A DNA stretch of 38,059 nt. Source: Clostridioides phage AR1074-1. The translations under genes were made by a program, and so were the position numbers. Positions 6,942 through 27,450 of this stretch are shown here, in pieces. Below the pieces are notes generated by a model. It saw only the letters and a program-made list of their open reading frames with translations, had not been told where the DNA came from and searched no databases. The DNA lies in sequence record OR397123.1; one strand, written 5' to 3'. Each line of letters begins with the position of its first letter. Within the stretch, counting starts at the first letter, position 1.

Positions 6942-7760
6942 GTGGAGAAAATGGCTAATACAAAGCTACTTACGTACTTTAACATAAAAGGAGGTATCTA
7001 TAAGACAACAACGTCTATAATGACAGCGTATGAACTTGCGAAAGATAAAGATAAAAAAATACTCTTATGGGACTTAGATGTACAAGCAAATCTAACACAA
7101 TATGTTTATGAAATAAATCATAATGATAATACTACATTAGATATTTTAAAAGGGATTAGTGCTAATGATGCAATAGTCAAGTCACCTAATGAAAAGTACA
7201 TTAATGTAGACTTAATTCCTTCTGACATACAAATGGCTAGATTTGAACAAGAGCTATCACCTTTACCAGCCAGAGAAAAATTTTTAGCTCGCTGGTACAT
7301 GCAAAACTTTAATACTTTGAGTGAGTATGATTATATTATCTGTGATTTATCTCCACGCTACGATTTGACAGCTAAAAATGTGCTTTTCTTAGCAGATAGT
7401 ATAATTATTCCAATTCAAGATAAAAACATTTCTTCTTTAAGAGGAGCAGAATTATTTAAACAACTCTGGGATGTTGATAGAACCTATTTTGATAAGGAGG
7501 ATAATATAAAAAGTACTGTTTTGGTTGGATTTGAGAAGAAGAAAACTCAAATTAGTGATACTTTCGATTCTTATCTGGAAGGGTTTAACGATATGAGAGA
7601 TATTATGTTAGATACATATATTAGAAAAAACGAGTTTATAGAGAAGGCACTATTGAAAAAACTATCTCTAACAGATTATACAAAAATAACTAAAGAGCAT
7701 TTCAGCAGACAAGAGTTTGCTAATATGTTAGAAGAACTAAAAGTGAAAGGAGTGTTGTAG
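6942..7760 (+). CDS. parA: ParA/MinD-family partition ATPase
   Basis: 272 aa with a deviant Walker A (NIKGGIYKTTTS, KGGxxK[ST] type) and Walker A'/B regions (LLWDLD, IICDLSP). RBS GAGGTGGAG. Confidence 0.85.
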   Translation: MEKMANTKLLTYFNIKGGIYKTTTSIMTAYELAKDKDKKILLWDLDVQANLTQYVYEINHNDNTTLDILKGISANDAIVKSPNEKYINVDLIPSDIQMARFEQELSPLPAREKFLARWYMQNFNTLSEYDYIICDLSPRYDLTAKNVLFLADSIIIPIQDKNISSLRGAELFKQLWDVDRTYFDKEDNIKSTVLVGFEKKKTQISDTFDSYLEGFNDMRDIMLDTYIRKNEFIEKALLKKLSLTDYTKITKEHFSRQEFANMLEELKVKGVL

Positions 7761-8096
7761 ATGCCAAAATTCGACGAAGAACTTTTATCTAATAAAGAAA
7801 AACCAGTTTTCAAAAAAAATGGAACAATCATACAAAATAATTCTACAACTACAGACAATAAGACATTAAACATATATAATCTAGTTAATAAGAAAAGTAA
7901 AAAGGTAACTATGAGTGCAACGCTTGATGAAGAACTTGTAAACAAATTAAAATCTTTTTCTATTGATATGAACAGCGACGTCAGCAAATTATTAAGTGAT
8001 GTACTAACTCAAATTTTATCTGATGTCACTATAAAAGAAGAGAATTTAAATATATACAATGAGAGAAATAGAAGAAATAAGACTAAGAAAAAGTAA
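7761..8096 (+). CDS. ParG/CopG-like ribbon-helix-helix partition adaptor (centromere-binding protein candidate)
   Basis: 111 aa. ATG immediately follows the parA stop. The C-terminal half, KKVTMSATLDEELVNKLKSFSIDMNSDVSKLLSDVLTQIL, fits a beta-strand-helix-helix RHH. The N-terminal half is disordered and basic. Confidence 0.6.
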   Translation: MPKFDEELLSNKEKPVFKKNGTIIQNNSTTTDNKTLNIYNLVNKKSKKVTMSATLDEELVNKLKSFSIDMNSDVSKLLSDVLTQILSDVTIKEENLNIYNERNRRNKTKKK

Positions 8097-8225
8097 ATAA
8101 TATTATATTTATATTGTTTAGATATTACTTAAATATTGTATATATAATATTTAAGTAATATTTTAATATTATTATTACAATATATCGATATTGTTTAAAT
8201 AATATGTTTTAACTATAATCTAAAA
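8097..8225. repeat. Second centromere-like AT-rich repeat field (ATATTGT boxes; 13-bp inverted repeat attacttaaatat/atatttaagtaat)
   Basis: Inverted repeat at 8126-8159 plus repeated atattgt/aatatt boxes, mirroring the field upstream of parA. Confidence 0.45.
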
Positions 8226-8238
8226 GGGGTTGGAAAAG

Positions 8239-8520
8239 ATGAATGTTTATTTGCAAATTGGAAAAGAGTTATCTGAAAAAATGACTAAATCTGAATTAAA
8301 TAAGTTTTCGCAGGAGGTGGCAAACTATCTGCAATACGCTGGACTTGATAAGAATATGAAAATTAAACTATTTCAAACAATTTTGGAAATGGTGGCAAGG
8401 AAAAAAATAACATTATCAAGCGATAGCGAATTTACGGAAGGAATATTGCAAAGCGACGAAGCAGAAATGACAATGAACGTAGGATTTATAATCGAAGGAT
8501 TAAGTTATCATAATAACTAA
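8239..8520 (+). CDS. Hypothetical protein (93 aa)
   Basis: The track begins at a TTG at 8230, but an RBS GGGG at 8226-8229 fits the ATG at 8239 (MNVYLQIGKEL...). A strong terminator follows. Confidence 0.5.
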   Translation: MNVYLQIGKELSEKMTKSELNKFSQEVANYLQYAGLDKNMKIKLFQTILEMVARKKITLSSDSEFTEGILQSDEAEMTMNVGFIIEGLSYHNN

Positions 8521-8536
8521 ACATTTTTAAAAAAAC

Positions 8537-8572
8537 AGTGTATTTATTGAATACACTGTTTTTATTTCCGCA
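8537..8572 (+). terminator. Rho-independent terminator (cagtgtatt-tattg-aatacactg plus TTTTTATTT)
   Basis: Perfect 9-bp stem followed by a T-run directly after the 8239-8520 gene. Confidence 0.7.
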
Positions 8573-8786
8573 TAGTTAATCTAAAATTGGATATTGTATC
8601 ATATGGATATAGATTAAATTGATATTTAAATCCCTTATAGTTAATCTTAAAAATTGTTATTATATTATTTCTCTATAAATTAAATTGACATTTAAATCCC
8701 TTGTAGTTAATATAAAAATTCTTATTACAATATCATTTCTAAATAAATTAAAAAATATTTTAAATCCCTCGTAGTTAATCTTAAAA
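8560..8786 (-). CRISPR. Orphan CRISPR-repeat-like mini-array: 3 well-conserved plus 1 degenerate 29-30-bp direct repeats at a 66-bp period. Minus-strand unit is TTTTTAWKATTAACTAYAAGGGATTTAAAT.
   Basis: On the plus strand the repeats lie at 8624-8652, 8690-8718 and 8757-8786 (ATTTAAATCCCTTRTAGTTAATMTWAAAA). A degenerate copy lies at about 8560-8587, as expected for a trailer-end repeat. Spacers are 35-38 bp. The minus-strand repeat begins TTTTATATTAACTA and ends GGGATTTAAAT, like clostridial type I-B repeats (recalled C. difficile consensus GTTTTATATTAACTAAGTGGTATGTAAAT). No cas genes in the window. The spacers share an AAATTAAATTGA motif, so a true array is uncertain. Confidence 0.4.
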
Positions 8787-8822
8787 GCGATACTATATAC
8801 ATTAATAATAATACTCTTCTAC

Positions 8823-9317
8823 TTAATTTTCAACTATATTTTGTAATTCTTGTTTACAACTTTCAATGCCTTCTCGTAATTCTTCTAAAAAAACTGATGT
8901 GCTATCGTCTATATTTCTTTCAGCAATTTCTTCAAAATTTTCTTTATTGAATTTTTTATAACTATCCCAATTCAAACTTTCGCATTTATTTTCGCACCAA
9001 TTTTCAAATTCTTCGTAATCATTTACGTAGTAAATTTCTCCAAACATATCGTCTAAGTTATTTCCTGTTTGTCTTGATGTGAAAATATTAATTTCTTTAT
9101 CATCATCTAAAAGTTTAGCATAAGCCTGGATTGCTATCGCTTCAACTTTTCCTTGTATATCGATATAAATTTTTATATCATTAGTCTCTTTGATTAAACA
9201 ACTTTCTTTAAAAGCTTTTATAGCTTCTTCCTCTATTTTATCTATATTCATATCTATAACCTTTAAAAATTTTTTAGCTTCTTTTTTATCCATTTTATCC
9301 ATTTTAATTTCCTCCAT
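8823..9317 (-). CDS. Hypothetical strongly acidic protein (164 aa, about 28% Asp+Glu); candidate anti-defence DNA mimic
   Basis: Last gene of the three-gene cargo operon. Its stop is 36 bp from the CRISPR-like repeats. No recognisable domain. Confidence 0.5.
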   Translation of the reverse strand: MEEIKMDKMDKKEAKKFLKVIDMNIDKIEEEAIKAFKESCLIKETNDIKIYIDIQGKVEAIAIQAYAKLLDDDKEINIFTSRQTGNNLDDMFGEIYYVNDYEEFENWCENKCESLNWDSYKKFNKENFEEIAERNIDDSTSVFLEELREGIESCKQELQNIVEN

Positions 9318-9324
9318 TTTTTAG

Positions 9325-9828
9325 TTATTTTTTATATATAACAGTTCTTTCGCTCTTTTCAATTTCTGTAAGATACTCTAAAAATTCTTTAATTTCTTGC
9401 TTGTTTATGCCTATAAATTCGTGTCTAATTTCACATTTTTCAATACGTGTAGAATATTTCTCTTCTAATTTATAAAATTTAGGTCTTACATTGGCTATAA
9501 GGTCACTTTCTACATTTTTGCTACACAAGCTATTTACATATATTAAAATGTTTTCTATATTTTCTATGTCTACTTTGTCGCCTTTTGAATAATAAAAATT
9601 AAATCTCAATCTTATTCCTATTTTACTGTTAATTTCACCATGACCCCACGTTTCAATGTTTAAACTTTTTCCAACTGTTTCTTTAACGCTTCCAATGTGA
9701 CCGTTCGCACAATCTTTAAGACTTATATCAAATATATCATTGTTGATTTTATTAATCTCTTTTTCTATCATTTTAACATTCTCTTTATTAACTTTTAAAT
9801 CTAATATTGTACTAAAATCTATATTCAT
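9325..9828 (-). CDS. Hypothetical protein (167 aa), cargo operon gene 2
   Basis: Tightly spaced with its neighbours (7-bp gap), suggesting translational coupling. No recognisable motif. Confidence 0.5.
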   Translation of the reverse strand: MNIDFSTILDLKVNKENVKMIEKEINKINNDIFDISLKDCANGHIGSVKETVGKSLNIETWGHGEINSKIGIRLRFNFYYSKGDKVDIENIENILIYVNSLCSKNVESDLIANVRPKFYKLEEKYSTRIEKCEIRHEFIGINKQEIKEFLEYLTEIEKSERTVIYKK

Positions 9829-9904
9829 GTTTTAAACCTCCAATTATTTTTTATTTTAATTATAGCATTCAATGGTGAACTATATTTGTATCAAGTTGAA
9901 ACTT

Positions 9905-10738
9905 TTAACACTCTACGCCATCTCTGAATACTTGGTATGCAATTTCTATTTTTCTTTCATCACTTTCTATTTTTCTATAGTTTTCAATCTGCTTCTTTTT
10001 AATGTCTGCAAATCCATTTCTATAAAATTGTGCATTTTTTTGTATTAATGTTTCTATTATGTATTTTTTAGCTTTCTCTATATATTCTGTGCTAGTAGCT
10101 TGTTTTACTGCGTCGTCAAATATTTCAACTATTTCAAGTACATTTTCTTTTATTTCATTAGACCAATTATCATTAAAATTTATTTCTTTAGCTATTTTCT
10201 TAGCTTCTTCATAGCTTATACTATAATCTTTAACTTTTTTAAGTCTATAAGATGCTTGTGTCTCCCCTTGTAAAAAACTCCAATTTCTGTTCTCTTTTGC
10301 AAATTGAGAATCTTTTAATATCTGATTTATATGAAATGCTTTTTGATTTAAAGAATTATACTTTAAAACATTTCTAAAATTATCTATAAAGAACTTAGCA
10401 TTCTCTATATTGCTTATTGCTTCTCTTATTCTTTCAAATTTTCTTTTACATCTTTCTGTCATTTCTTCTATACTCATGTCTTTAATTTTGTAGTCTTCAT
10501 TTTTTATTCTTTCTATTTTACTTTTTTCTAGTTCGTTAGTTAAATTTAAAATGTCTGTTCTTATATCATTAGCCCAAATAATTTGTTTTTCTGACCCTTT
10601 TAATTCTTTCAATTTTATATCCCCCTTTTTATTTAAGAATGATAAGCAAAGACTAAATTGTACTTTATAATCTACATTACTATATTTTCTTTTTATTTCT
10701 CTTGCCATTTTATGCGCTTCTTTAAATAAAATTTTCAT
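9905..10738 (-). CDS. Hypothetical protein (277 aa), cargo operon gene 1
   Basis: First gene downstream of a divergent promoter shared with a small XRE-like regulator. Lys/Glu-rich and helical, with no recognisable catalytic motif. Confidence 0.5.
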   Translation of the reverse strand: MKILFKEAHKMAREIKRKYSNVDYKVQFSLCLSFLNKKGDIKLKELKGSEKQIIWANDIRTDILNLTNELEKSKIERIKNEDYKIKDMSIEEMTERCKRKFERIREAISNIENAKFFIDNFRNVLKYNSLNQKAFHINQILKDSQFAKENRNWSFLQGETQASYRLKKVKDYSISYEEAKKIAKEINFNDNWSNEIKENVLEIVEIFDDAVKQATSTEYIEKAKKYIIETLIQKNAQFYRNGFADIKKKQIENYRKIESDERKIEIAYQVFRDGVEC

Positions 10739-10916
10739 TCTTTGCTTACCCCCTTGTTTTATTTGTTAATTATATTATAATCTATATGAATATCTAAGTC
10801 AACACTTTTTCAAAGTTTTTTCTTTGATTTCCAAAAATATAACTTTGATTAGCGTAGATTATTCTTTTACTTTTAATTTTTTTATGTTATTATATAAATA
10901 AGAGAGGTGCGAAAAA

Positions 10917-11129
10917 ATGACATGGAAGAATGAAATTAAAAGTATTCTTGTAAAAGAAAATATCAGCATGAATGAGTTAAATAATTTAATGAATGAACAT
11001 AATAATAAGAATAATACAGTTGAAAATTTAAGACAAAAAATAAATAATGAGACTATGAAGTATAGTGAAATCTTGACTATTGCTAATTTGATAGGATATG
11101 AAGTTGTTTGGAAAAAGAAAGAAAAGTAG
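10917..11129 (+). CDS. Small XRE-like HTH regulator divergent from the cargo operon
   Basis: 70 aa. RBS AGAGAGGTG 7 nt upstream of the ATG. ENISMNELNNLMN...MKYSEILTIANLIGYEV resembles an HTH_XRE helix 2-3 plus a C-terminal helix. Confidence 0.5.
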   Translation: MTWKNEIKSILVKENISMNELNNLMNEHNNKNNTVENLRQKINNETMKYSEILTIANLIGYEVVWKKKEK

Positions 11130-11132
11130 ACA

Positions 11133-11172
11133 TAAAAAAAGAAGGTAACAACTAACTAGTTGCTACCTTCTA
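11133..11172. terminator. Bidirectional terminator between the regulator gene and the endolysin gene
   Basis: Stem gaaggtaacaac/gttgctaccttc (1 mismatch) with A-rich and T-rich flanks, between convergent genes. Confidence 0.5.
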
Positions 11173-11174
11173 AT

Positions 11175-12014
11175 CTATCTATCAATAAAATCTAATGCTT
11201 TGTAAAGTGTTTCAAACCTATCATTACCTTTTATCATAGTATAATTTTCTTTAGTCATAGAACTTATCTTTTCACATGCTCCACCACCAACAACATAAAG
11301 ATTTTGTGTCTGGCCAGGTACATAATCTTTTATATCACATATTAATATTTTCCCATCATTATAACCCCATCCAACAACAGTTGCAGGGATTTTGTCAACT
11401 TCTCCATCATAAATGATTGTATGTTTGTACATCTGTTTAACTCCCTCATTATTTATATTTTTATTTAATACACCTTCTACAATCAACTTAGCAATACCTT
11501 CATGACCTAGTTTCTTAGCTTTCTCATAATCTTCTTTGTTATCGCAAAAGAAACTTTCAATTAGTATTGCAGTAGGTTTAGAACTATTTAAAATATATAA
11601 ACTTTTATCTAATTTAACACCTCTATTACCTACTTCTTTATCTCCTTTTTTTCTTATGAAAGGTTTAGATAATTTATCTACTACCCTTTGCGCATATTCC
11701 TTCCCTTTTTCACTATAGTAAAATACTTCTGTTCCAAAGGCTCCTACACCACTTGAATTTAAATGCAACTCTATAAGTAAGTCATATCCTCCACTATTAA
11801 CTTTAGGTATTTTGTAAGATTTTTCCTCACTCTTAGTTTTAAACTGCTTTTCGGGGCATATTATTACATCTGCCTTATGACCTTCTTTTCTAAAAGTATC
11901 TGCTAATACTGGTGCAAGAGATTTATTGTATTGATACTCGTTAACTACTCCATTAGCAGAAGTACATGCCCCGCTTTTTAAAATGCTGTGTCCTACTGTT
12001 ATACATATTTTCAT
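11175..12014 (-). CDS. Endolysin: N-acetylmuramoyl-L-alanine amidase (Amidase_3 catalytic domain, CD27L-like)
   Basis: 279 aa. MKICITVGHSILKSGACTSANGVVNEYQYNKSLAPVLADTFRKEGHK... is nearly identical in pattern to the C. difficile phage endolysin CD27L, as recalled from memory. Confidence 0.9.
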   Translation of the reverse strand: MKICITVGHSILKSGACTSANGVVNEYQYNKSLAPVLADTFRKEGHKADVIICPEKQFKTKSEEKSYKIPKVNSGGYDLLIELHLNSSGVGAFGTEVFYYSEKGKEYAQRVVDKLSKPFIRKKGDKEVGNRGVKLDKSLYILNSSKPTAILIESFFCDNKEDYEKAKKLGHEGIAKLIVEGVLNKNINNEGVKQMYKHTIIYDGEVDKIPATVVGWGYNDGKILICDIKDYVPGQTQNLYVVGGGACEKISSMTKENYTMIKGNDRFETLYKALDFIDR

Positions 12015-12445
12015 TATTTACTACCTCCTTTAACATTTAATTCATCTGTCATAGTATCTAATAAACTACCTATTCTATCTTTTAATTTTCTAGGTACTGG
12101 TAACCCACACAAATACATGTTTTTTAATATACTTACACTTTCATATAGAATAAATAAAATAGAGAAAAATTCAGATATTCCAAGATGATTTAATCGCAAA
12201 AAATCAACCCAATCTTGTGGTAACATAAATAAAAAGTTAAACTTTGTAAGAATGTCAACTACTGCTAGAAAAAATATACATGCTATCATTGCAACTTTTC
12301 TTATTCCTCCATTTATTCCAAAACTTGAATTAAACTGATGTGTTTTTATTGCTCTTAAACAACCTAGCAATGTATCAAATGCTATTGCTAATATTACTAA
12401 TTTTATAAATATATTTGTCGCTAAAAAAACTATTGTTACGTTCAT
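12014..12445 (-). CDS. Holin (phage_holin_4_1 / TcdE-like)
   Basis: 143 aa with 3-4 transmembrane helices and a charged C-terminus. Overlaps the endolysin start by 1 nt. Confidence 0.75.
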   Translation of the reverse strand: MNVTIVFLATNIFIKLVILAIAFDTLLGCLRAIKTHQFNSSFGINGGIRKVAMIACIFFLAVVDILTKFNFLFMLPQDWVDFLRLNHLGISEFFSILFILYESVSILKNMYLCGLPVPRKLKDRIGSLLDTMTDELNVKGGSK

Positions 12446-24544: not shown

Positions 24545-24987
24545 TATAACCCCAACCCTCTTTTTAATATTTCTTTCATTACATTTTTAGCTTCATCTTT
24601 TTTTGATTCGTATGCGGGTGCTAGAAACGGTTTAGAACTGGTTCCTGGATGATTTACTACCCTTCCTTTTTTCTTACCTTTTTTAATTGGTATTTTATGC
24701 GCAGATGCTCCAAACTCTAAAAACTTTCCATAAAAAATTTCTGAATTATCCTCTTTCGTAATACCAACTAAAACATACTTAGTACCACCTTTTTTCTTAA
24801 CTCCACTTACTTTTAAACCATCTTTTAACTTTCCGCTTCTTTTGCTTACCCTTGGTAATGCATCTTGCAAAATAACATTACCGCCAGCTTTTACAGCTTC
24901 ATTTAACAGTTTATCGCCTGTTTTACCCATGCTTTCTATTTTAGATAAAATAGCGTCAAATCCTTCTGTTGTTATCTCCACACTCAT
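24544..24987 (-). CDS. HK97 gp10-family tail completion protein
   Basis: 147 aa. MSVEITTEGFDAILSKIESMGKTGDKLLNEAVKAGGNVILQDALPRVSKRSGKLKDG fits the HK97 gp10 family. Confidence 0.6.
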   Translation of the reverse strand: MSVEITTEGFDAILSKIESMGKTGDKLLNEAVKAGGNVILQDALPRVSKRSGKLKDGLKVSGVKKKGGTKYVLVGITKEDNSEIFYGKFLEFGASAHKIPIKKGKKKGRVVNHPGTSSKPFLAPAYESKKDEAKNVMKEILKRGLGL

Positions 24988-25314
24988 TTAAACAACTTCC
25001 TCATATTTAAATTTTAATTCTTTACAATAATATTCATTTTCTATAAAATCACTAGAATTTAAAAAGATAAAATTTTCTTTTTTAAATATATCTTTTATAC
25101 TAATATATTTGTTTATATTCTTTAAGCTCTTATACCAATATTCTATTTTTATTGAATATACAATACTTTTATTTTCATTATCAGAAAAATTTGCATCATA
25201 TTCATTTTCTATAAAAAATATTATATATTCTTCATCATTTGAAAAATTGTCGTATTCTTGAAAACCAATACCTAGATTTAATTTTTTAAGTATAGTAACT
25301 ATTTTTGAGTGCAT
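24988..25314 (-). CDS. Hypothetical Asn/Lys/Tyr-rich protein in the connector module (possible moron)
   Basis: 108 aa, very AT-rich, with no counterpart in the canonical HK97-type connector gene order. Confidence 0.4.
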   Translation of the reverse strand: MHSKIVTILKKLNLGIGFQEYDNFSNDEEYIIFFIENEYDANFSDNENKSIVYSIKIEYWYKSLKNINKYISIKDIFKKENFIFLNSSDFIENEYYCKELKFKYEEVV

Positions 25315-25333
25315 ACTATCTCCTAACTTTTTT

Positions 25334-25984
25334 TTACTTAGATTCTGCTGTTATTTCAAGTATTTTATTTTCTTCTTCTAAATTTAAGATTTGAGTTATA
25401 TTATAAAATTTATCTTTGTATTTAATAACAAAATTAGTTATAGCATTTTGTTTTATACTTAAATCTAATTCTTCAATATATCTAATTTTAAACTTTTTAT
25501 TTGTAGAAGTTTTAATCGAATTATTTTCTATCAATTCTTTACTATTTAAATCTTCAACACAAGCCCAAATTTTTTTATAAAATTTTATTGTTACATCCTC
25601 AAGAACATTTTTTCTCTCTTTGATAAAAATAGAAATATGTTTATCTAATACGTCAACTAATTCAGTTAAGTATAAATACACACTAGTTTTGTCATTGCTA
25701 ATATCAAGTTTTACTATGCTGTAAAATTCATTATTTAACTTTATAACATCACTTGTTTTAATTAATCTCATGTAAGGAACTTTTAATTTAATAGATACCT
25801 TTAACCCTGTATCGTCAAATTTAAGTTTGTCTTGCTCTCTTATATATTCATTAGAATAAAAGAGTTTACCACTTACAATAAACTCTTTTTCATCTAACGC
25901 ATTACCTTCTATATCATAACTTTCCTTGTATTCTCCAAACTCAACAATACCATCATTAAAATTATTAAATTTTATTTTTTTCAT
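25334..25984 (-). CDS. Head-tail adaptor (head closure) protein with an about 100-aa C-terminal extension
   Basis: 216 aa. Residues 1-110 match the head closure pattern (...KVPYMRLIKTSDVIKLNNEFYSIVKLDISNDKTSVYLYLTEL). The C-terminal half ends in a similar ...ILEITAE motif and may be a partial internal duplication. Confidence 0.5.
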   Translation of the reverse strand: MKKIKFNNFNDGIVEFGEYKESYDIEGNALDEKEFIVSGKLFYSNEYIREQDKLKFDDTGLKVSIKLKVPYMRLIKTSDVIKLNNEFYSIVKLDISNDKTSVYLYLTELVDVLDKHISIFIKERKNVLEDVTIKFYKKIWACVEDLNSKELIENNSIKTSTNKKFKIRYIEELDLSIKQNAITNFVIKYKDKFYNITQILNLEEENKILEITAESK

Positions 25985-25986
25985 AT

Positions 25987-26283
25987 CTATATTACCTCAT
26001 TAGCTGCACTTTTAATTTGAAGTCTAAGAAGCTCTTTACTAAAATTTTCCTCGAAATATTCAATAGCATTGTTTCTTACATATCTGCAATAATTAAATAG
26101 CAATTCTCTATTAAAATTATCTTTAAAATCCAGTGCTATTCCTGCTATTTCATTTTCAAAGTAATCAATTCCTCTTACAACCATTTTTTCTATTTTTGCA
26201 TCTTCTTCTATCCAAGTTATATTTAGATATTCTTTTACCTCTTCAACTACACTTTTAATGTTTTCATTTTCCATATATTTCAC
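25987..26283 (-). CDS. Head-tail connector (gp6-like)
   Basis: 98 aa directly downstream of the capsid gene. Confidence 0.5.
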   Translation of the reverse strand: MKYMENENIKSVVEEVKEYLNITWIEEDAKIEKMVVRGIDYFENEIAGIALDFKDNFNRELLFNYCRYVRNNAIEYFEENFSKELLRLQIKSAANEVI

Positions 26284-27450
26284 CTATTTCGCTCTAGCAG
26301 CTGACGTTTTTGTGTTTGAATTAATTTCTGTTGCTAAAGTTGTGTCTAAGTTTTCTATATCAAATACTAAAAATGAATCATTGTCTTTTGGCGCTCCTGT
26401 TGCATATTGTTTTACTAGATAAGTTCTTTCGTCCTCTAAAAATTTATATTCGTCTGAATACTCTATTTTTCCGCTTGAAGCAACTCCCATAAAATAATCT
26501 TTTGCCATACCAGCTATTAATTTACCTTTAGGGACAGCAACTGATTGAATTATATTCCCAGGGATAGGTAAAACTCCATACACATAAGTACCATTAGATG
26601 TTAACATAGTTGTGGCAGCGAAAATTTTAGCCCAGTAATCAACCGGATTTACAAGCATTATAACGCTTGGGACTGCCCTTTTACCATTGTTTGTAAGTGG
26701 TGCCATAATCTCTTTGCCAAGTGTTATTGGTTTAAAATCAGCCAGTGGTTTTGCAGTTTTGTCTGGAAATACGCCTTCAACGACTGCGCCTTTTAAATCT
26801 TTTATCATACCTTTCGGCTGGTCTTTTCCTGTTCCTGCTACTATTCCCATTTCAAGCCCCAATGATATAGATTCAGTCAAAACTACTCTTACATATCTGT
26901 CTAACCATTCAGCCCCTAAATCAAGCATGGCTTTTGCAACTGGAAGATAAGCAGATAATTTATAAGCTTCTGTATTAATTTTATCAAATCCATGCTCTAG
27001 CTCTTTTTTGATAGTATCATCTAATCTACCCCACCATGCAGCTTCTGCGTTCGTTTTCCTTATTATCCACTCCGTAACTCCTGTTGTATTTTCAAAAGTT
27101 ATGGCACTAAGCAAAGGGTGATTTTGTTCTAAGTCGTCAAATACTCTATCAAATACAGTACGTGGCATAGTTATCTCTAAGTTGGTAAATCCTCTTTTTT
27201 CTATAACTTTACTATAGTATGCTCTTTCCTCGCTAGTTAATTGCGGCATCCCTCTTTTGTCAAGTATTGCTCTGTCAGCTGATTCTATATTAGCAATAGA
27301 ACGCGCTTCTTTTAGTAGATTTTCTTGTATATCTTCCGCCATCCTCAAAAACGCAGTTGTTATTTTTTCCTCGTCATTACCCTTTATTGCTTCCATTAAA
27401 TCTGCTCTTAGTTCAACATTAGTTGCTTCATCTAAATTTTTAATTGCCAT
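26284..27450 (-). CDS. Major capsid protein (HK97 fold)
   Basis: 388 aa following the prohead protease, with typical HK97-family MCP length and composition. Confidence 0.85.
   Translation of the reverse strand: MAIKNLDEATNVELRADLMEAIKGNDEEKITTAFLRMAEDIQENLLKEARSIANIESADRAILDKRGMPQLTSEERAYYSKVIEKRGFTNLEITMPRTVFDRVFDDLEQNHPLLSAITFENTTGVTEWIIRKTNAEAAWWGRLDDTIKKELEHGFDKINTEAYKLSAYLPVAKAMLDLGAEWLDRYVRVVLTESISLGLEMGIVAGTGKDQPKGMIKDLKGAVVEGVFPDKTAKPLADFKPITLGKEIMAPLTNNGKRAVPSVIMLVNPVDYWAKIFAATTMLTSNGTYVYGVLPIPGNIIQSVAVPKGKLIAGMAKDYFMGVASSGKIEYSDEYKFLEDERTYLVKQYATGAPKDNDSFLVFDIENLDTTLATEINSNTKTSAARAK

What the first reader, a model, noticed from the sequence alone, without database searches (positions are those of the whole stretch)
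8823..11129. Regulated three-gene cargo operon of unknown function between the lysis cassette and the CRISPR-like repeats: candidate anti-defence or defence island
Three tightly spaced minus-strand genes of 277, 167 and 164 aa lie downstream of a divergent promoter shared with a 70-aa XRE-like HTH gene. The HTH-divergent layout is typical of Aca-controlled acr loci and of many defence operons. None of the three proteins has a motif I can recognise. The last one is strongly acidic (about 28% Asp+Glu, net charge about -20), the signature of DNA-mimic anti-restriction or anti-CRISPR proteins. Its stop codon is 36 bp from the CRISPR-like units. The position between the endolysin and the plasmid partition module is the classic moron/accessory slot of temperate phages. 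The block is insulated by a bidirectional terminator on the lysis side and a strong terminator on the par side.
Basis: inference. Interest (0 to 1): 0.8.

Follow-up and report, generated by a model that had tools for sequence, protein, structure and literature searches.

The report
Known phage anti-CRISPR (AcrIB2) operon
This three-gene block is the already published anti-CRISPR locus of phiCD38-2-type Clostridioides difficile phages: its last, acidic gene is an orthologue of the validated inhibitor AcrIB2, and I find that its first gene carries a domain related to a second known anti-CRISPR, AcrIE7.

Summary
Three tightly spaced minus-strand genes (277, 167 and 164 aa as maximal ORFs) lie between the endolysin and the partition module. 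They have their own strong promoter and face a divergent 70-aa gene.

The window is a phiCD38-2-like (Leicestervirus) plasmid prophage of C. difficile. The acidic third protein is 82% identical to phiCD38-2 gp27. That protein is AcrIB2, which was shown experimentally to block type I-B CRISPR interference and is proposed to act as a DNA mimic binding Cas3 (Muzyukina et al. 2023, PMC10732046). That paper describes this same operon, noting "two unknown-function genes upstream".

New leads:
- **CRISPR-like units:** they lie inside the operon's 3' end, before the terminator. Their "spacers" are conserved across unrelated phages, so they form a fixed pseudo-array, possibly an RNA anti-CRISPR.

The parts
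10774..10802 (-). Promoter of the three-gene operon (TTGACT, 17-nt spacer, TATAAT)
   Evidence: Best sigma-70-like match in 8000-12100, 11 of 12 positions. It lies about 36 nt upstream of the 277-aa start codon. Function is inferred, not shown.
10810..10848 (.). Inverted repeat between the divergent promoters (TCAAAGTT...AACTTTGA); candidate operator
   Evidence: Arms of 17 nt, 82% complementary, 5 nt apart. Its role as an operator is inference only.
9905..10738 (-). Gene 1, 277 aa (orthologue of phiCD38-2 gp25): basic, all-helical protein with an AcrIE7-like region (residues ~48-122) between a swappable N-terminal module and a C-terminal helical domain
9325..9828 (-). Gene 2, 167 aa (orthologue of gp26): alpha/beta protein of unknown function, found almost only in Clostridioides phages
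8823..9302 (-). Gene 3, acrIB2 orthologue (159 aa from Met6; the maximal ORF reaches 9317)
   Evidence: 82% identical to phiCD38-2 gp27 (AcrIB2) over 156 aa, with the NDYEEF motif (D92, E94, E95) conserved (PMC10732046). Matches PHROG 4337 at E 1e-84. GGAGG lies 8 nt before Met6. Asp+Glu is 25% and net charge -17.
8559..8786 (-). Four CRISPR-repeat-like 29-mers (8758-8786, 8690-8718, 8624-8652, degenerate 8559-8587) separated by three 36-39-nt 'spacers'. This pseudo-array lies in the 3' untranslated part of the operon.
   Evidence: Each unit has 6-8 mismatches of 29 to the repeat consensus used for the scan (the reverse complement of Rfam CRISPR-DR14), which is the second most frequent repeat in the C. 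difficile arrays fetched. Rfam CRISPR-DR14 matches below threshold, 27 bits against 45. The spacers resemble each other, because whole 66-nt units are 65-80% alike. They are nearly identical in phiCD38-2, phiCDHM13, AR1086-1 and phiCD211. The element occurs at the homologous place in 28 phage records and nowhere else.
8531..8563 (.). Bidirectional intrinsic terminator ending the operon (minus strand) and the convergent 93-aa gene (plus strand)
   Evidence: Perfect 14-bp stem. Free energy is -14.5 and -15.7 kcal/mol with z-scores of -5.1 and -6.7, and U-runs follow on both strands.
10917..11129 (+). Divergent 70-aa gene (orthologue of gp24, 99% identical): candidate regulator (Aca-like), unproven
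   Evidence: Identity. Homologues occur only in Clostridioides. All 8 aligned members give a sub-threshold match to DUF6471, and no HTH family is hit. There is no PDB relative.
11140..11171 (-). Terminator of the endolysin (late) transcript, insulating the operon from late read-through
   Evidence: 14-bp stem followed by U7 on the minus strand, -22.1 kcal/mol. There is no U-run on the plus strand.
8239..8520 (+). Convergent, highly conserved 93-aa gene (orthologue of gp28) that always accompanies acrIB2 and the pseudo-array
   Evidence: 77-93% identical across the phages compared, with dN/dS 0.07-0.27. Assigned to PHROG 4021, function unknown. [quoted passage not shown]

Best explanation
The block is the anti-CRISPR (acr) locus of a phiCD38-2-like plasmid prophage of Clostridioides difficile.

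**Transcription.** A dedicated sigma-A-type promoter (10802-10774) is insulated from the late lysis transcript by the terminator at 11140-11171. It should drive one minus-strand transcript that encodes the 277-aa protein, the 167-aa protein and AcrIB2. The transcript then runs through four CRISPR-repeat-like units and stops at the bidirectional hairpin 8531-8563.

**Shown, in the orthologous phage.** AcrIB2 blocks interference by the host type I-B system (the 'partial' cas operon). It works both when expressed alone and from the prophage. It is acidic and aromatic-rich, co-purifies with Cas3, and is proposed to act as a DNA mimic that keeps Cas3 away from Cascade-bound DNA. In phiCD38-2 lysogens the gene and the genes upstream are highly transcribed.

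**Inferred here.**
- The first gene is a second anti-CRISPR. Its residues ~48-122 are homologous to AcrIE7, which binds the displaced single strand of the R-loop and shields it from Cas3. The same operon would then attack the Cas3 step twice, by DNA mimicry and by substrate shielding.
- The 167-aa protein is most likely a further anti-defence protein of unknown target.
- The pseudo-array is co-transcribed and may act as an RNA decoy for Cas6 or Cascade subunits (Racr- or Cracr-like).
- The divergent 70-aa protein may autoregulate the locus through the inverted repeat at 10810-10848.
For: - **Identity of the locus.** Region 8500-11200 is 92.9% identical to phiCD38-2 24783-27404 with the same gene order. 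Protein identities to gp27, gp26, gp25 and gp24 are 82%, 93%, 90% and 99%.
- **AcrIB2.** PMC10732046 identifies acrIB2 as the phiCD38-2 fusion homologue of phiCDHM13 gp28-gp29. [quoted passage not shown] D92, E94 and E95 fit gp27 and are conserved in the window.
- **AcrIE7 link of the 277-aa protein.**
  - The profile of short-spaced family members hits only AcrIE7 significantly in the PDB (E 5e-5).
  - hhalign of the whole family against AcrIE7 residues 2-56 gives 93% probability, E 3.4e-7.
  - The shared motifs are GSEKQ(I/V)xWAxxI and xA(K/R)xxIDN. They contain AcrIE7 K6 and flank R49, the two residues needed for ssDNA binding and Cas3 blocking (PMC12002350).
  - K51 is conserved in 28 of 32 homologues, and a basic residue follows IDN in 29 of 32.
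  - In AR1086-1 the module upstream of GSEKQ is replaced, which puts a domain boundary exactly at the start of the AcrIE7 homology.
- **Linkage.** The 277-aa and 167-aa genes travel with acrIB2 in two unrelated phage backbones: 41-kb Leicestervirus and the 130-kb AR1086-1 and LIBA6276.
- **Transcription unit.**
- **Pseudo-array.** The precedent is RacrIC1, encoded 11 nt downstream of an AcrIC5 homologue in one operon (PMC10651486). Array-like viral crlRNAs that synergise with Acrs are a second precedent (bioRxiv 2024.10.29.618823).
Against: - Only AcrIB2 has been tested, and only the phiCD38-2 allele. The window's allele differs at 18% of positions.
- The authors did not test gp25 or gp26.
- The AcrIE7 similarity covers about 50 aligned residues of a 277-aa protein, with a 31-residue insertion. 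The whole-family HMM alone reaches only E 0.15. R49 aligns with Phe, and the basic residue sits one position later.
- AcrIE7's mechanism rests on in-vitro work, and its authors note that their AlphaFold models deviated from the crystal structure.
- Short homologues of the 277-aa protein lie between the par and lysis modules of other plasmid phages with no recognised acr gene annotated nearby. A plasmid-lifestyle role is therefore not excluded.
- Nothing assigns the 167-aa protein.
- No target was found for the pseudo-spacers.
- Transcription through the units is inferred from sequence only.
- The 70-aa protein is not demonstrably a DNA-binding protein.
Confidence: 0.85

Rival explanations
1. 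Only the last gene is anti-CRISPR. The 277-aa and 167-aa proteins would serve the plasmid-prophage lifestyle (replication, partition, lysogeny maintenance or superinfection exclusion) and merely share a promoter with acrIB2.
For: The block abuts the ParA module. Short homologues of the 277-aa protein lie between the partition and lysis modules in other episomal phages: phiSM101 and a metagenomic phage with a ParM-like gene. The 277-aa protein is basic (+10), and an AcrIE7-like ssDNA-binding surface could serve DNA metabolism. A distant homologue of the 167-aa protein sits in a phage replication and early region and carries a weak HTH_17-like tail.
Against: In the 130-kb phage AR1086-1 the two genes lie next to acrIB2 and no partition gene is annotated in the surrounding stretch, though that record names every product 'hypothetical protein'. 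In other phages the equivalent slot upstream of acrIB2 is filled with AP2-domain proteins, the class found in acr loci. The only characterised relative of the 277-aa protein is an anti-CRISPR. Neither protein matches a replication or partition family.
Confidence: 0.25
2. The operon, or its first two genes, is a prophage-encoded defence or superinfection-exclusion system that protects the lysogen.
For: It occupies a moron-like position, has its own promoter and is reported to be highly transcribed in lysogens (PMC10732046). Its gene content varies between related phages.
Against: None of the proteins matches any PADLOC model or any enzymatic or effector domain. The third gene is a validated anti-CRISPR. 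The first gene's only relative is an anti-CRISPR.
Confidence: 0.07
3. The CRISPR-like units downstream of acrIB2 are a functional mini-CRISPR array used for inter-phage competition, as proposed for phiCD211, and have nothing to do with the acr operon.
For: The units are annotated as CRISPR in phiCD211. The literature describes that element as a 4-spacer array targeting known C. difficile phages. The spacing (66-68 nt) and the repeat family are those of C. difficile type I-B arrays.
Against: The three 'spacers' are the same in phages whose AcrIB2 proteins are only 50% identical. They resemble one another, which indicates tandem duplication of a 66-nt unit. The array region (8525-8822) matches phage genomes only at the homologous locus, and the spacers alone have no other match in the window. 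No canonical leader precedes them. Repeats carry 6-8 changes of 29, including changes in the part that would form the crRNA 5' tag. The array would depend on the very Cascade-Cas3 pathway that the adjacent gene inhibits.
Confidence: 0.1

Closest known systems
acrIB2 locus of C. difficile phage phiCD38-2 (gp24-gp28; Muzyukina et al. 2023, mSphere, PMC10732046)
   Same: Gene order, orientation and position between endolysin and parA are the same. The DNA is 93% identical. The proteins are 82% (AcrIB2), 93%, 90% and 99% identical. The conserved convergent downstream gene and the repeat units are also shared.
   Different: The AcrIB2 allele is diverged at 18% of residues, mostly at positions 55-90 and the N-terminus. 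The window has one more repeat unit, four against three. The window's allele has not been tested.
AcrIE7 (Pseudomonas type I-E/I-C anti-CRISPR; binds R-loop ssDNA and blocks Cas3; PDB 9L2Q/9KJB; PMC12002350)
   Different: AcrIE7 is a 106-aa single-domain protein from Proteobacteria. The window protein has 277 aa, with an extra N-terminal module, a 31-residue helical insertion between the motifs and a ~150-aa C-terminal domain. The R49 equivalent is shifted by one position. The host system is type I-B. No activity has been shown.
acr-racr operons and array-like viral crlRNAs (RacrIC1 downstream of an AcrIC5 homologue, Camara-Wilpert et al. 2023, PMC10651486; Cracr RNAs, bioRxiv 2024.10.29.618823)
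   Same: CRISPR-repeat mimics without cas genes or a leader lie a few tens of nt downstream of an acr gene, ahead of the terminator.
   Different: Here there are 3-4 units at array spacing rather than a solitary repeat. The pseudo-spacers are full length (36-39 nt), whereas Cracrs typically have 17-21 nt. No complementarity to a cas or toxin promoter was found in the loci I could examine. There are no expression or activity data.
Alternative acrIB2 loci with AP2-domain proteins (phiCDHM13 gp26-gp29, JD032_24-26, phiCD418) and the CasPR family (CapR+AP2 cas repressors, bioRxiv 10.64898/2026.02.23.707548)
   Same: The slot downstream of the endolysin is the same, as are the terminal acrIB2, the pseudo-array and the convergent gene.
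   Different: Those phages carry a 149-aa protein and a ~211-aa AP2-domain protein where this window carries the 277-aa and 167-aa genes. The window has no AP2 or CapR protein.

Membership tests
AcrIB2 family | Full-length sequence homology to phiCD38-2 gp27 (AcrIB2) | tested here: met
   82% identity over 156 aa. PHROG 4337 matches at E 1e-84 over the full profile. tblastn finds 30 phage records, 23 of them at 80-90% identity.
AcrIB2 family | Acidic and aromatic-rich composition with the conserved acidic linker residues D92, E94 and E95 | tested here: met
   Asp+Glu is 25%, net charge -17, and Asp+Glu+Phe+Trp+Tyr is 35%. The NDYEEF motif is identical to gp27. The paper's figure of 53% could not be reproduced with this definition.
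AcrIB2 family | Locus position: downstream of the lysis module, same direction as the late genes, followed by a conserved convergent gene | tested here: met
AcrIB2 family | Inhibition of C. difficile type I-B interference | not testable with these tools
   Shown for the phiCD38-2 allele only (PMC10732046).
AcrIE7 family (277-aa protein) | Significant sequence similarity to AcrIE7 | tested here: met
   The sub-family profile A3 hits only AcrIE7 chains in the PDB: E 5e-5, 26.8 bits, 54 residues. hhalign of family A1 against AcrIE7 residues 2-56 gives 93% probability, E 3.4e-7. The A1 HMM alone reaches only E 0.15. A3 and A1 are the same family at 100% probability.
AcrIE7 family (277-aa protein) | Seven-helix bundle fold | tested here: inconclusive
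AcrIE7 family (277-aa protein) | ssDNA-binding residues K6 and R49 | tested here: inconclusive
   The K6 equivalent (K51 of GSEKQ) is conserved in 28 of 32 homologues. R49 aligns with F121, and a basic residue (R122 or K) follows in 22 of 32, or sits at 121 in 7 of 32.
AcrIE7 family (277-aa protein) | Small single-domain protein (~106 aa) | tested here: not met
   The protein has 277 aa, with N- and C-terminal additions and a 31-aa insertion. It is best described as containing an AcrIE7-like domain, not as an AcrIE7 orthologue.
AcrIE7 family (277-aa protein) | Binds R-loop ssDNA and blocks Cas3 cleavage | not testable with these tools
Aca-regulated acr operon | Adjacent HTH (or AP2) transcriptional repressor | tested here: inconclusive
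   The 70-aa protein gives only a sub-threshold DUF6471 match (E 2e-4) and no HTH family or PDB relative. It is transcribed divergently, not encoded downstream in the operon as classical aca genes are.
Aca-regulated acr operon | Inverted-repeat operator at the acr promoter | tested here: inconclusive
   One 17-nt inverted repeat (82% complementary) lies at 10810-10848, just upstream of the -35 box. Such repeats are not rare in DNA this AT-rich.
RNA anti-CRISPR (Racr / Cracr) | Close mimic of the host CRISPR repeat, without cas genes or a leader | tested here: met
   21-23 of 29 positions match the repeat consensus used for the scan (reverse complement of Rfam CRISPR-DR14), which is the second most frequent repeat in the C. 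difficile arrays fetched. The Rfam DR14 match is sub-threshold. The conserved leader of the chromosomal arrays is absent.
RNA anti-CRISPR (Racr / Cracr) | Encoded in an acr locus and in the same transcription unit | tested here: met
   The units start 36 nt after the acrIB2 stop and lie before the only terminator. They accompany acrIB2 in 28 of 30 phage records. Co-transcription is inferred.
RNA anti-CRISPR (Racr / Cracr) | Solitary repeat (Racr), or short pseudo-spacer complementary to a cas or creT promoter (Cracr) | tested here: not met
   There are 3-4 units with 36-39-nt pseudo-spacers. No CCW-flanked partial target was found in the window or in nine C. difficile array loci. The cas promoters were not necessarily among those loci.
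Cas-derived anti-CRISPR (AcrIB3/AcrIB4-like), for the 167-aa protein | Sequence homology to a Cas protein | tested here: not met
   No Pfam, PADLOC or NCBIfam Cas family is hit at E<=1.
Cas-derived anti-CRISPR (AcrIB3/AcrIB4-like), for the 167-aa protein | Cas7-like (RAMP) fold | tested here: inconclusive
Known anti-phage defence systems (PADLOC-DB v2) | Match of any component to a defence-system model | tested here: not met
   There are no matches apart from one hit at E 0.57.

The most novel reading that the evidence does not exclude
The operon is a layered anti-CRISPR cassette that attacks the type I-B Cas3 step by several independent means from one transcript. The components would be an AcrIE7-like protein that shields the R-loop single strand, the DNA mimic AcrIB2, an unassigned 167-aa protein (conceivably a Cascade-subunit mimic), and a fixed pseudo-CRISPR array in the 3' UTR that acts as an RNA decoy or regulator for Cas6 or Cascade. 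This would extend the AcrIE7 family from Pseudomonas type I-E to Bacillota type I-B phages. It would also add the first array-shaped type I-B RNA anti-CRISPR.
Probability: 0.3. Interest if true: 0.6.

Novelty: already known. Interest (0 to 1): 0.38.

Why it matters
[quoted passage not shown] AcrIB2 is the first inhibitor described for that system in C. difficile, so recognising its locus in prophage episomes matters for predicting phage-host outcomes.

The locus itself is published and is not a discovery. Two additions may be worth a specialist's bench time.

- **gp25-type protein.** It contains an AcrIE7-like domain. This gives a concrete, testable function to one of the paper's 'unknown-function genes upstream'. 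It also links a Pseudomonas Acr family to a widespread, unannotated family of Clostridia phage proteins.
- **phiCD211 'CRISPR array'.** It is a fixed pseudo-array that accompanies acrIB2 in 28 of the 30 phage records that carry it. This argues against an inter-phage targeting role and for an acr-linked RNA function.

Tried and rejected
- **Family scans.** Pfam, NCBIfam and PADLOC scans of all five proteins gave nothing above threshold. PHROGs gave only strong matches to families annotated 'unknown function'.
- **167-aa protein.**
  - A full HMMER search of 1.84 billion representatives with the family profile found only 4 proteins.
  - The contexts of the two distant ones were uninformative, apart from a weak HTH_17-like C-terminal fusion in one of them.
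  - The afdb50 library was unavailable.
- **AcrIB2.** The sequence has no PDB relative.
- **70-aa protein.** Neither its profile against the PDB nor a Pfam scan of all members confirmed an HTH.
- **Cracr idea.** I looked for pseudo-spacer targets with a CCW PAM in the window and in nine C. difficile CRISPR loci. Only T-rich chance seeds turned up.
- **Leader comparison.** The pseudo-array has no similarity to the conserved leader of the chromosomal arrays.
- **Lysogen RNA-seq.** The phiCD38-2 lysogen paper (PMC4309704) is not held. Expression in lysogens is therefore cited second-hand from PMC10732046.
- **CDHS-1 transcriptome.** This paper gave no gene-level information on the block.
Full report
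**1. What is there**

The ORF list reproduces the finding exactly. There are three minus-strand ORFs: 9905-10738 (277 aa), 9325-9828 (167 aa) and 8823-9317 (164 aa). A plus-strand 70-aa ORF lies at 10917-11129. An Amidase-type endolysin (11175-12014, minus) is on one side. On the other side lie a ParA gene (6942-7760), a 111-aa gene and a 96-aa ORF (8230-8520).

The first two genes have strong ribosome-binding sites: AAGGGGG 8 nt and GGAGG 9 nt upstream. The third has none before its first ATG, but GGAGG lies 8 nt before Met6. The protein is therefore probably 159 aa, starting at 9302.

Pairwise dN/dS against orthologues from three other phages is 0.33-0.57 for the acidic gene, 0.18-0.35 for the 167-aa gene and 0.28-0.49 for the 277-aa gene. 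All three are genuine coding genes, and the acidic one evolves fastest.

The best sigma-70-like site in 8000-12100 is TTGACT-17-TATAAT at 10802->10774 on the minus strand.

Both flanking hairpins are real:
- The lysis-side hairpin (11140-11171) is -22 kcal/mol with U7 on the minus strand only. It ends the endolysin transcript.
- The par-side hairpin (8531-8563) has U-runs on both strands.

The acidic protein has 25% Asp+Glu and net charge -17 to -18, slightly less than stated. The 36-nt distance to the first CRISPR-like unit is exact.

**2. Identity of the element**

Megablast of 8500-11200 against phage genomes gives 92.9% identity over the full length to phiCD38-2, phiCD146, phiCD111, slur17 and CDSH1. 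The phiCD38-2 annotation shows the same order: endolysin gp23, gp24 (+), gp25, gp26, gp27 (-), gp28 (+), gp29, ParA gp30. The window proteins are 99% (gp24), 90% (gp25), 93% (gp26), 82% (gp27) and 77% (gp28) identical to these.

**3. The acidic protein is AcrIB2**

Muzyukina et al. 2023 (PMC10732046) tested the phiCD38-2 'fused homolog of phiCDHM13 gp28-gp29'. They showed that it:
- restores conjugation of a CRISPR-targeted plasmid;
- abolishes self-targeting toxicity and the accompanying loss of genomic DNA;
- acts on the 'partial' cas operon;
- reduces interference about 10-fold when expressed from the prophage.

They named it AcrIB2. They describe it as rich in acidic and aromatic residues and as co-purifying with Cas3 and many nucleic-acid-binding proteins. 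They propose it is a DNA mimic that keeps Cas3 from Cascade-bound DNA.

[quoted passage not shown] Three observations tie this to the window's gene:
- phiCDHM13 gp28 and gp29 lie under the same DNA and tblastn matches as the window's acidic gene.
- The paper's conserved D92, E94 and E95 fall on the NDYEEF motif of gp27, which is identical in the window.
- PHROGs still lists the family (phrog_4337, plus the two halves 27416 and 30435) as 'unknown function'.

**4. The 277-aa protein**

*Distribution.* Homologues are abundant in C. difficile; individual clusters are seen on 454 and 697 contigs. The alignment shows three parts:
- an N-terminal module (AHKMxxEIKxxYxxVDYKxQFxLCLS);
- two conserved motifs, GSEKQ(I/V)KWAxDIR (residues 48-60) and xAKFFIDNF(K/R) (114-122);
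- a C-terminal helical region.

Shorter relatives (150-225 aa) occur in Clostridium perfringens phages and in metagenomes.

*Sequence.* Three independent comparisons point the same way:
- The family profile picks out AcrIE7 by exactly those two motifs, although weakly (E 0.15).
- A profile of the family members whose motif spacing equals that of AcrIE7 hits only AcrIE7 chains in the whole PDB, at E 5e-5 over 54 residues. These members (P0074, P0076, P0077 and others) are full-length homologues of the window protein at hhalign 100%.
- hhalign of the whole family against AcrIE7 residues 2-56 gives 93% probability, E 3.4e-7. It aligns window residues 48-122 with a 31-residue insertion.

*Functional residues.* AcrIE7 binds single-stranded DNA, protects the displaced strand of Cascade R-loops from Cas3, and needs K6 and R49 (PMC12002350). 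K6 is the Lys of GSEKQ, conserved in 28 of 32 homologues. R49 follows IIDN; in the window family a basic residue sits one position later, or at that position in 7 of 32. The protein is basic (+10).

*Domain boundary.* In phage AR1086-1 the part upstream of GSEKQ is replaced by an unrelated 130-residue module. The domain boundary therefore coincides with the start of the AcrIE7 homology.

*Conclusion.* The protein contains an AcrIE7-like domain. It is not an AcrIE7 orthologue, because it is 2.6 times larger and multi-domain, and its activity is untested. The mSphere study cloned only acrIB2 from phiCD38-2.

**5. The 167-aa protein**

It is confined to Clostridioides phages. There are 11 clusters at 90% identity and 4 representatives among 1.84 billion proteins with a profile search.

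However, Foldseek finds nothing significant and ranks generic ferredoxin-like folds first. No Cas HMM matches either. I treat the Cas7 resemblance as an unconfirmed lead.

One distant homologue carries a weak HTH_17-like C-terminal extension.

**6. Accessory behaviour**

acrIB2 homologues occur in 30 phage records from at least four backbones. The 167-aa and 277-aa genes occur only in the Leicestervirus group and, again next to acrIB2, in the 130-kb phages AR1086-1 and LIBA6276.

Other phages fill the slot upstream of acrIB2 differently:
- phiCDHM13, phiCD418 and JD032 carry a 149-aa protein and an AP2-domain protein.
- phiCD211 carries three regulators and a 110-aa protein.
- Some related phages carry two other genes (163 and 188-199 aa) and a 68-aa chimera of the gp28 N-terminus and the gp24 C-terminus.

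This mix-and-match pattern is typical of acr loci. AP2-plus-CapR proteins in such loci have recently been shown to be cas repressors, named CasPRs.

**7. The CRISPR-like units belong to the operon's 3' end**

On the minus strand, the acrIB2 stop is followed after 36 nt by four 29-nt units at 66-68-nt spacing, and then by the terminator.

The units have 6-8 mismatches of 29 to the consensus used for the scan, GTTTTATATTAACTATGTGGTATGTAAAT (the reverse complement of Rfam CRISPR-DR14). That sequence is the second most frequent repeat in the C. difficile arrays I fetched, whose repeats follow GTTTTATATTAACTA[AT]GTGGTATGTAAA[GT]. They match Rfam CRISPR-DR14 below threshold.

They do not behave as an adaptive array:
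- Whole 66-nt units are 65-80% alike, so the 'spacers' resemble each other.
- The same three spacers recur almost unchanged in phiCD38-2 (one unit fewer), phiCDHM13, AR1086-1 and phiCD211, where AcrIB2 itself is only 50% identical.
- The element matches phage genomes only at the homologous locus, in 28 records.
- There is no canonical leader.

The closest known arrangements are RacrIC1, which lies 11 nt downstream of an AcrIC5 homologue in one operon (PMC10651486), and array-like viral crlRNAs that cooperate with Acrs. I found no pseudo-spacer target with a CCW PAM, so the Cracr variant is unsupported and an RNA-decoy role is only inferred.

**8. Regulator**

The 70-aa protein is 99% identical to gp24 and restricted to Clostridioides. 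It gives only a sub-threshold, full-length DUF6471 match and has no PDB relative. Its helix pattern looks XRE-like to the eye, but that is inference. A 17-nt inverted repeat at 10810-10848 lies between the divergent promoters.

**9. Verdict**

It describes the published acrIB2 locus, so its novelty is low.

Worth passing on:
- the AcrIE7-like domain in the gp25-type protein;
- the fixed pseudo-array co-located with acrIB2;
- the still unassigned 167-aa protein.

Noticed in passing
window 8559-8786; L001, L002, L003, L004 homologous places: The 'CRISPR array' annotated in phiCD211 is the same conserved pseudo-array found next to acrIB2 in 28 phage records, with near-identical 'spacers'. It is described in the literature as targeting known C. 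difficile phages. In the phage collection searched, its matches in other phages are all to the homologous locus itself, so I found no protospacers.
   Followed up: yes
L014 5001-5207, L016 5001-5207 (proteins P0111, P0112): These are 68-aa chimeric proteins. Their N-terminus is that of the conserved 93-99-aa gene (gp28 type) and their C-terminal half is that of the 70-aa gp24-type protein. They occur in phages whose slot between this gene and the endolysin holds two different genes (163 and 188-199 aa). This suggests that the two small flanking genes are related and serve as recombination points for cargo exchange.
   Followed up: partly
L002 4877-5512 (phiCDHM13 gp27), L019 3796-4443 (phiCD418), L043 2765-3400 (JD032_25): The gp27-type proteins just upstream of acrIB2 in other phages resemble the newly described CasPR class (CapR+AP2 cas-gene repressors). 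phiCDHM13 gp27 and the phiCD418 protein have a C-terminal AP2 domain in Pfam; JD032_25 was not scanned but has the same position and a similar length (211 aa). The JD032 transcriptome paper reports that eight type I-B cas genes are down-regulated during infection. The CapR domain was not checked.
   Followed up: partly
C. difficile array loci L021-L041: Rare degenerate variants among the repeats of the chromosomal C. difficile arrays fetched (...TGTGGATTTAAAAT...GGACTTAAAAT; their position within the arrays was not checked) share the GGATTTAAA 3' end with the phage pseudo-repeats (...AGGGATTTAAAT). The phage units may derive from, or mimic, the degenerate leader-distal repeat described in the literature.
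   Followed up: no
P0099 (L005 6001-6666): A distant homologue of the 167-aa protein carries a C-terminal HTH_17-like extension (E 0.016). It lies among small genes downstream of a phage replication module. This is compatible with an Acr-Aca-type fusion or with a regulatory role.
   Followed up: partly
L018 3492-3905 (phiSM101 CPR_C0048); L012 5001-5678: Short relatives of the 277-aa protein also lie between the partition and lysis modules. They have the N-terminal module plus the AcrIE7-like motifs. They occur in the episomal C. perfringens phage phiSM101 and in a metagenomic phage with a ParM-like gene. The family appears to be an unannotated, widespread Clostridia-phage family.
   Followed up: partly
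window 8097-8229: The extremely AT-rich intergenic region upstream of the conserved 93-aa gene contains several promoter-like hexamer pairs and, by eye, internal repeats (e.g. 'tacttaaatatt' / 'aatatttaagta'). It could be a regulatory or partition (centromere-like) site for the adjacent ParA module.
   Followed up: no
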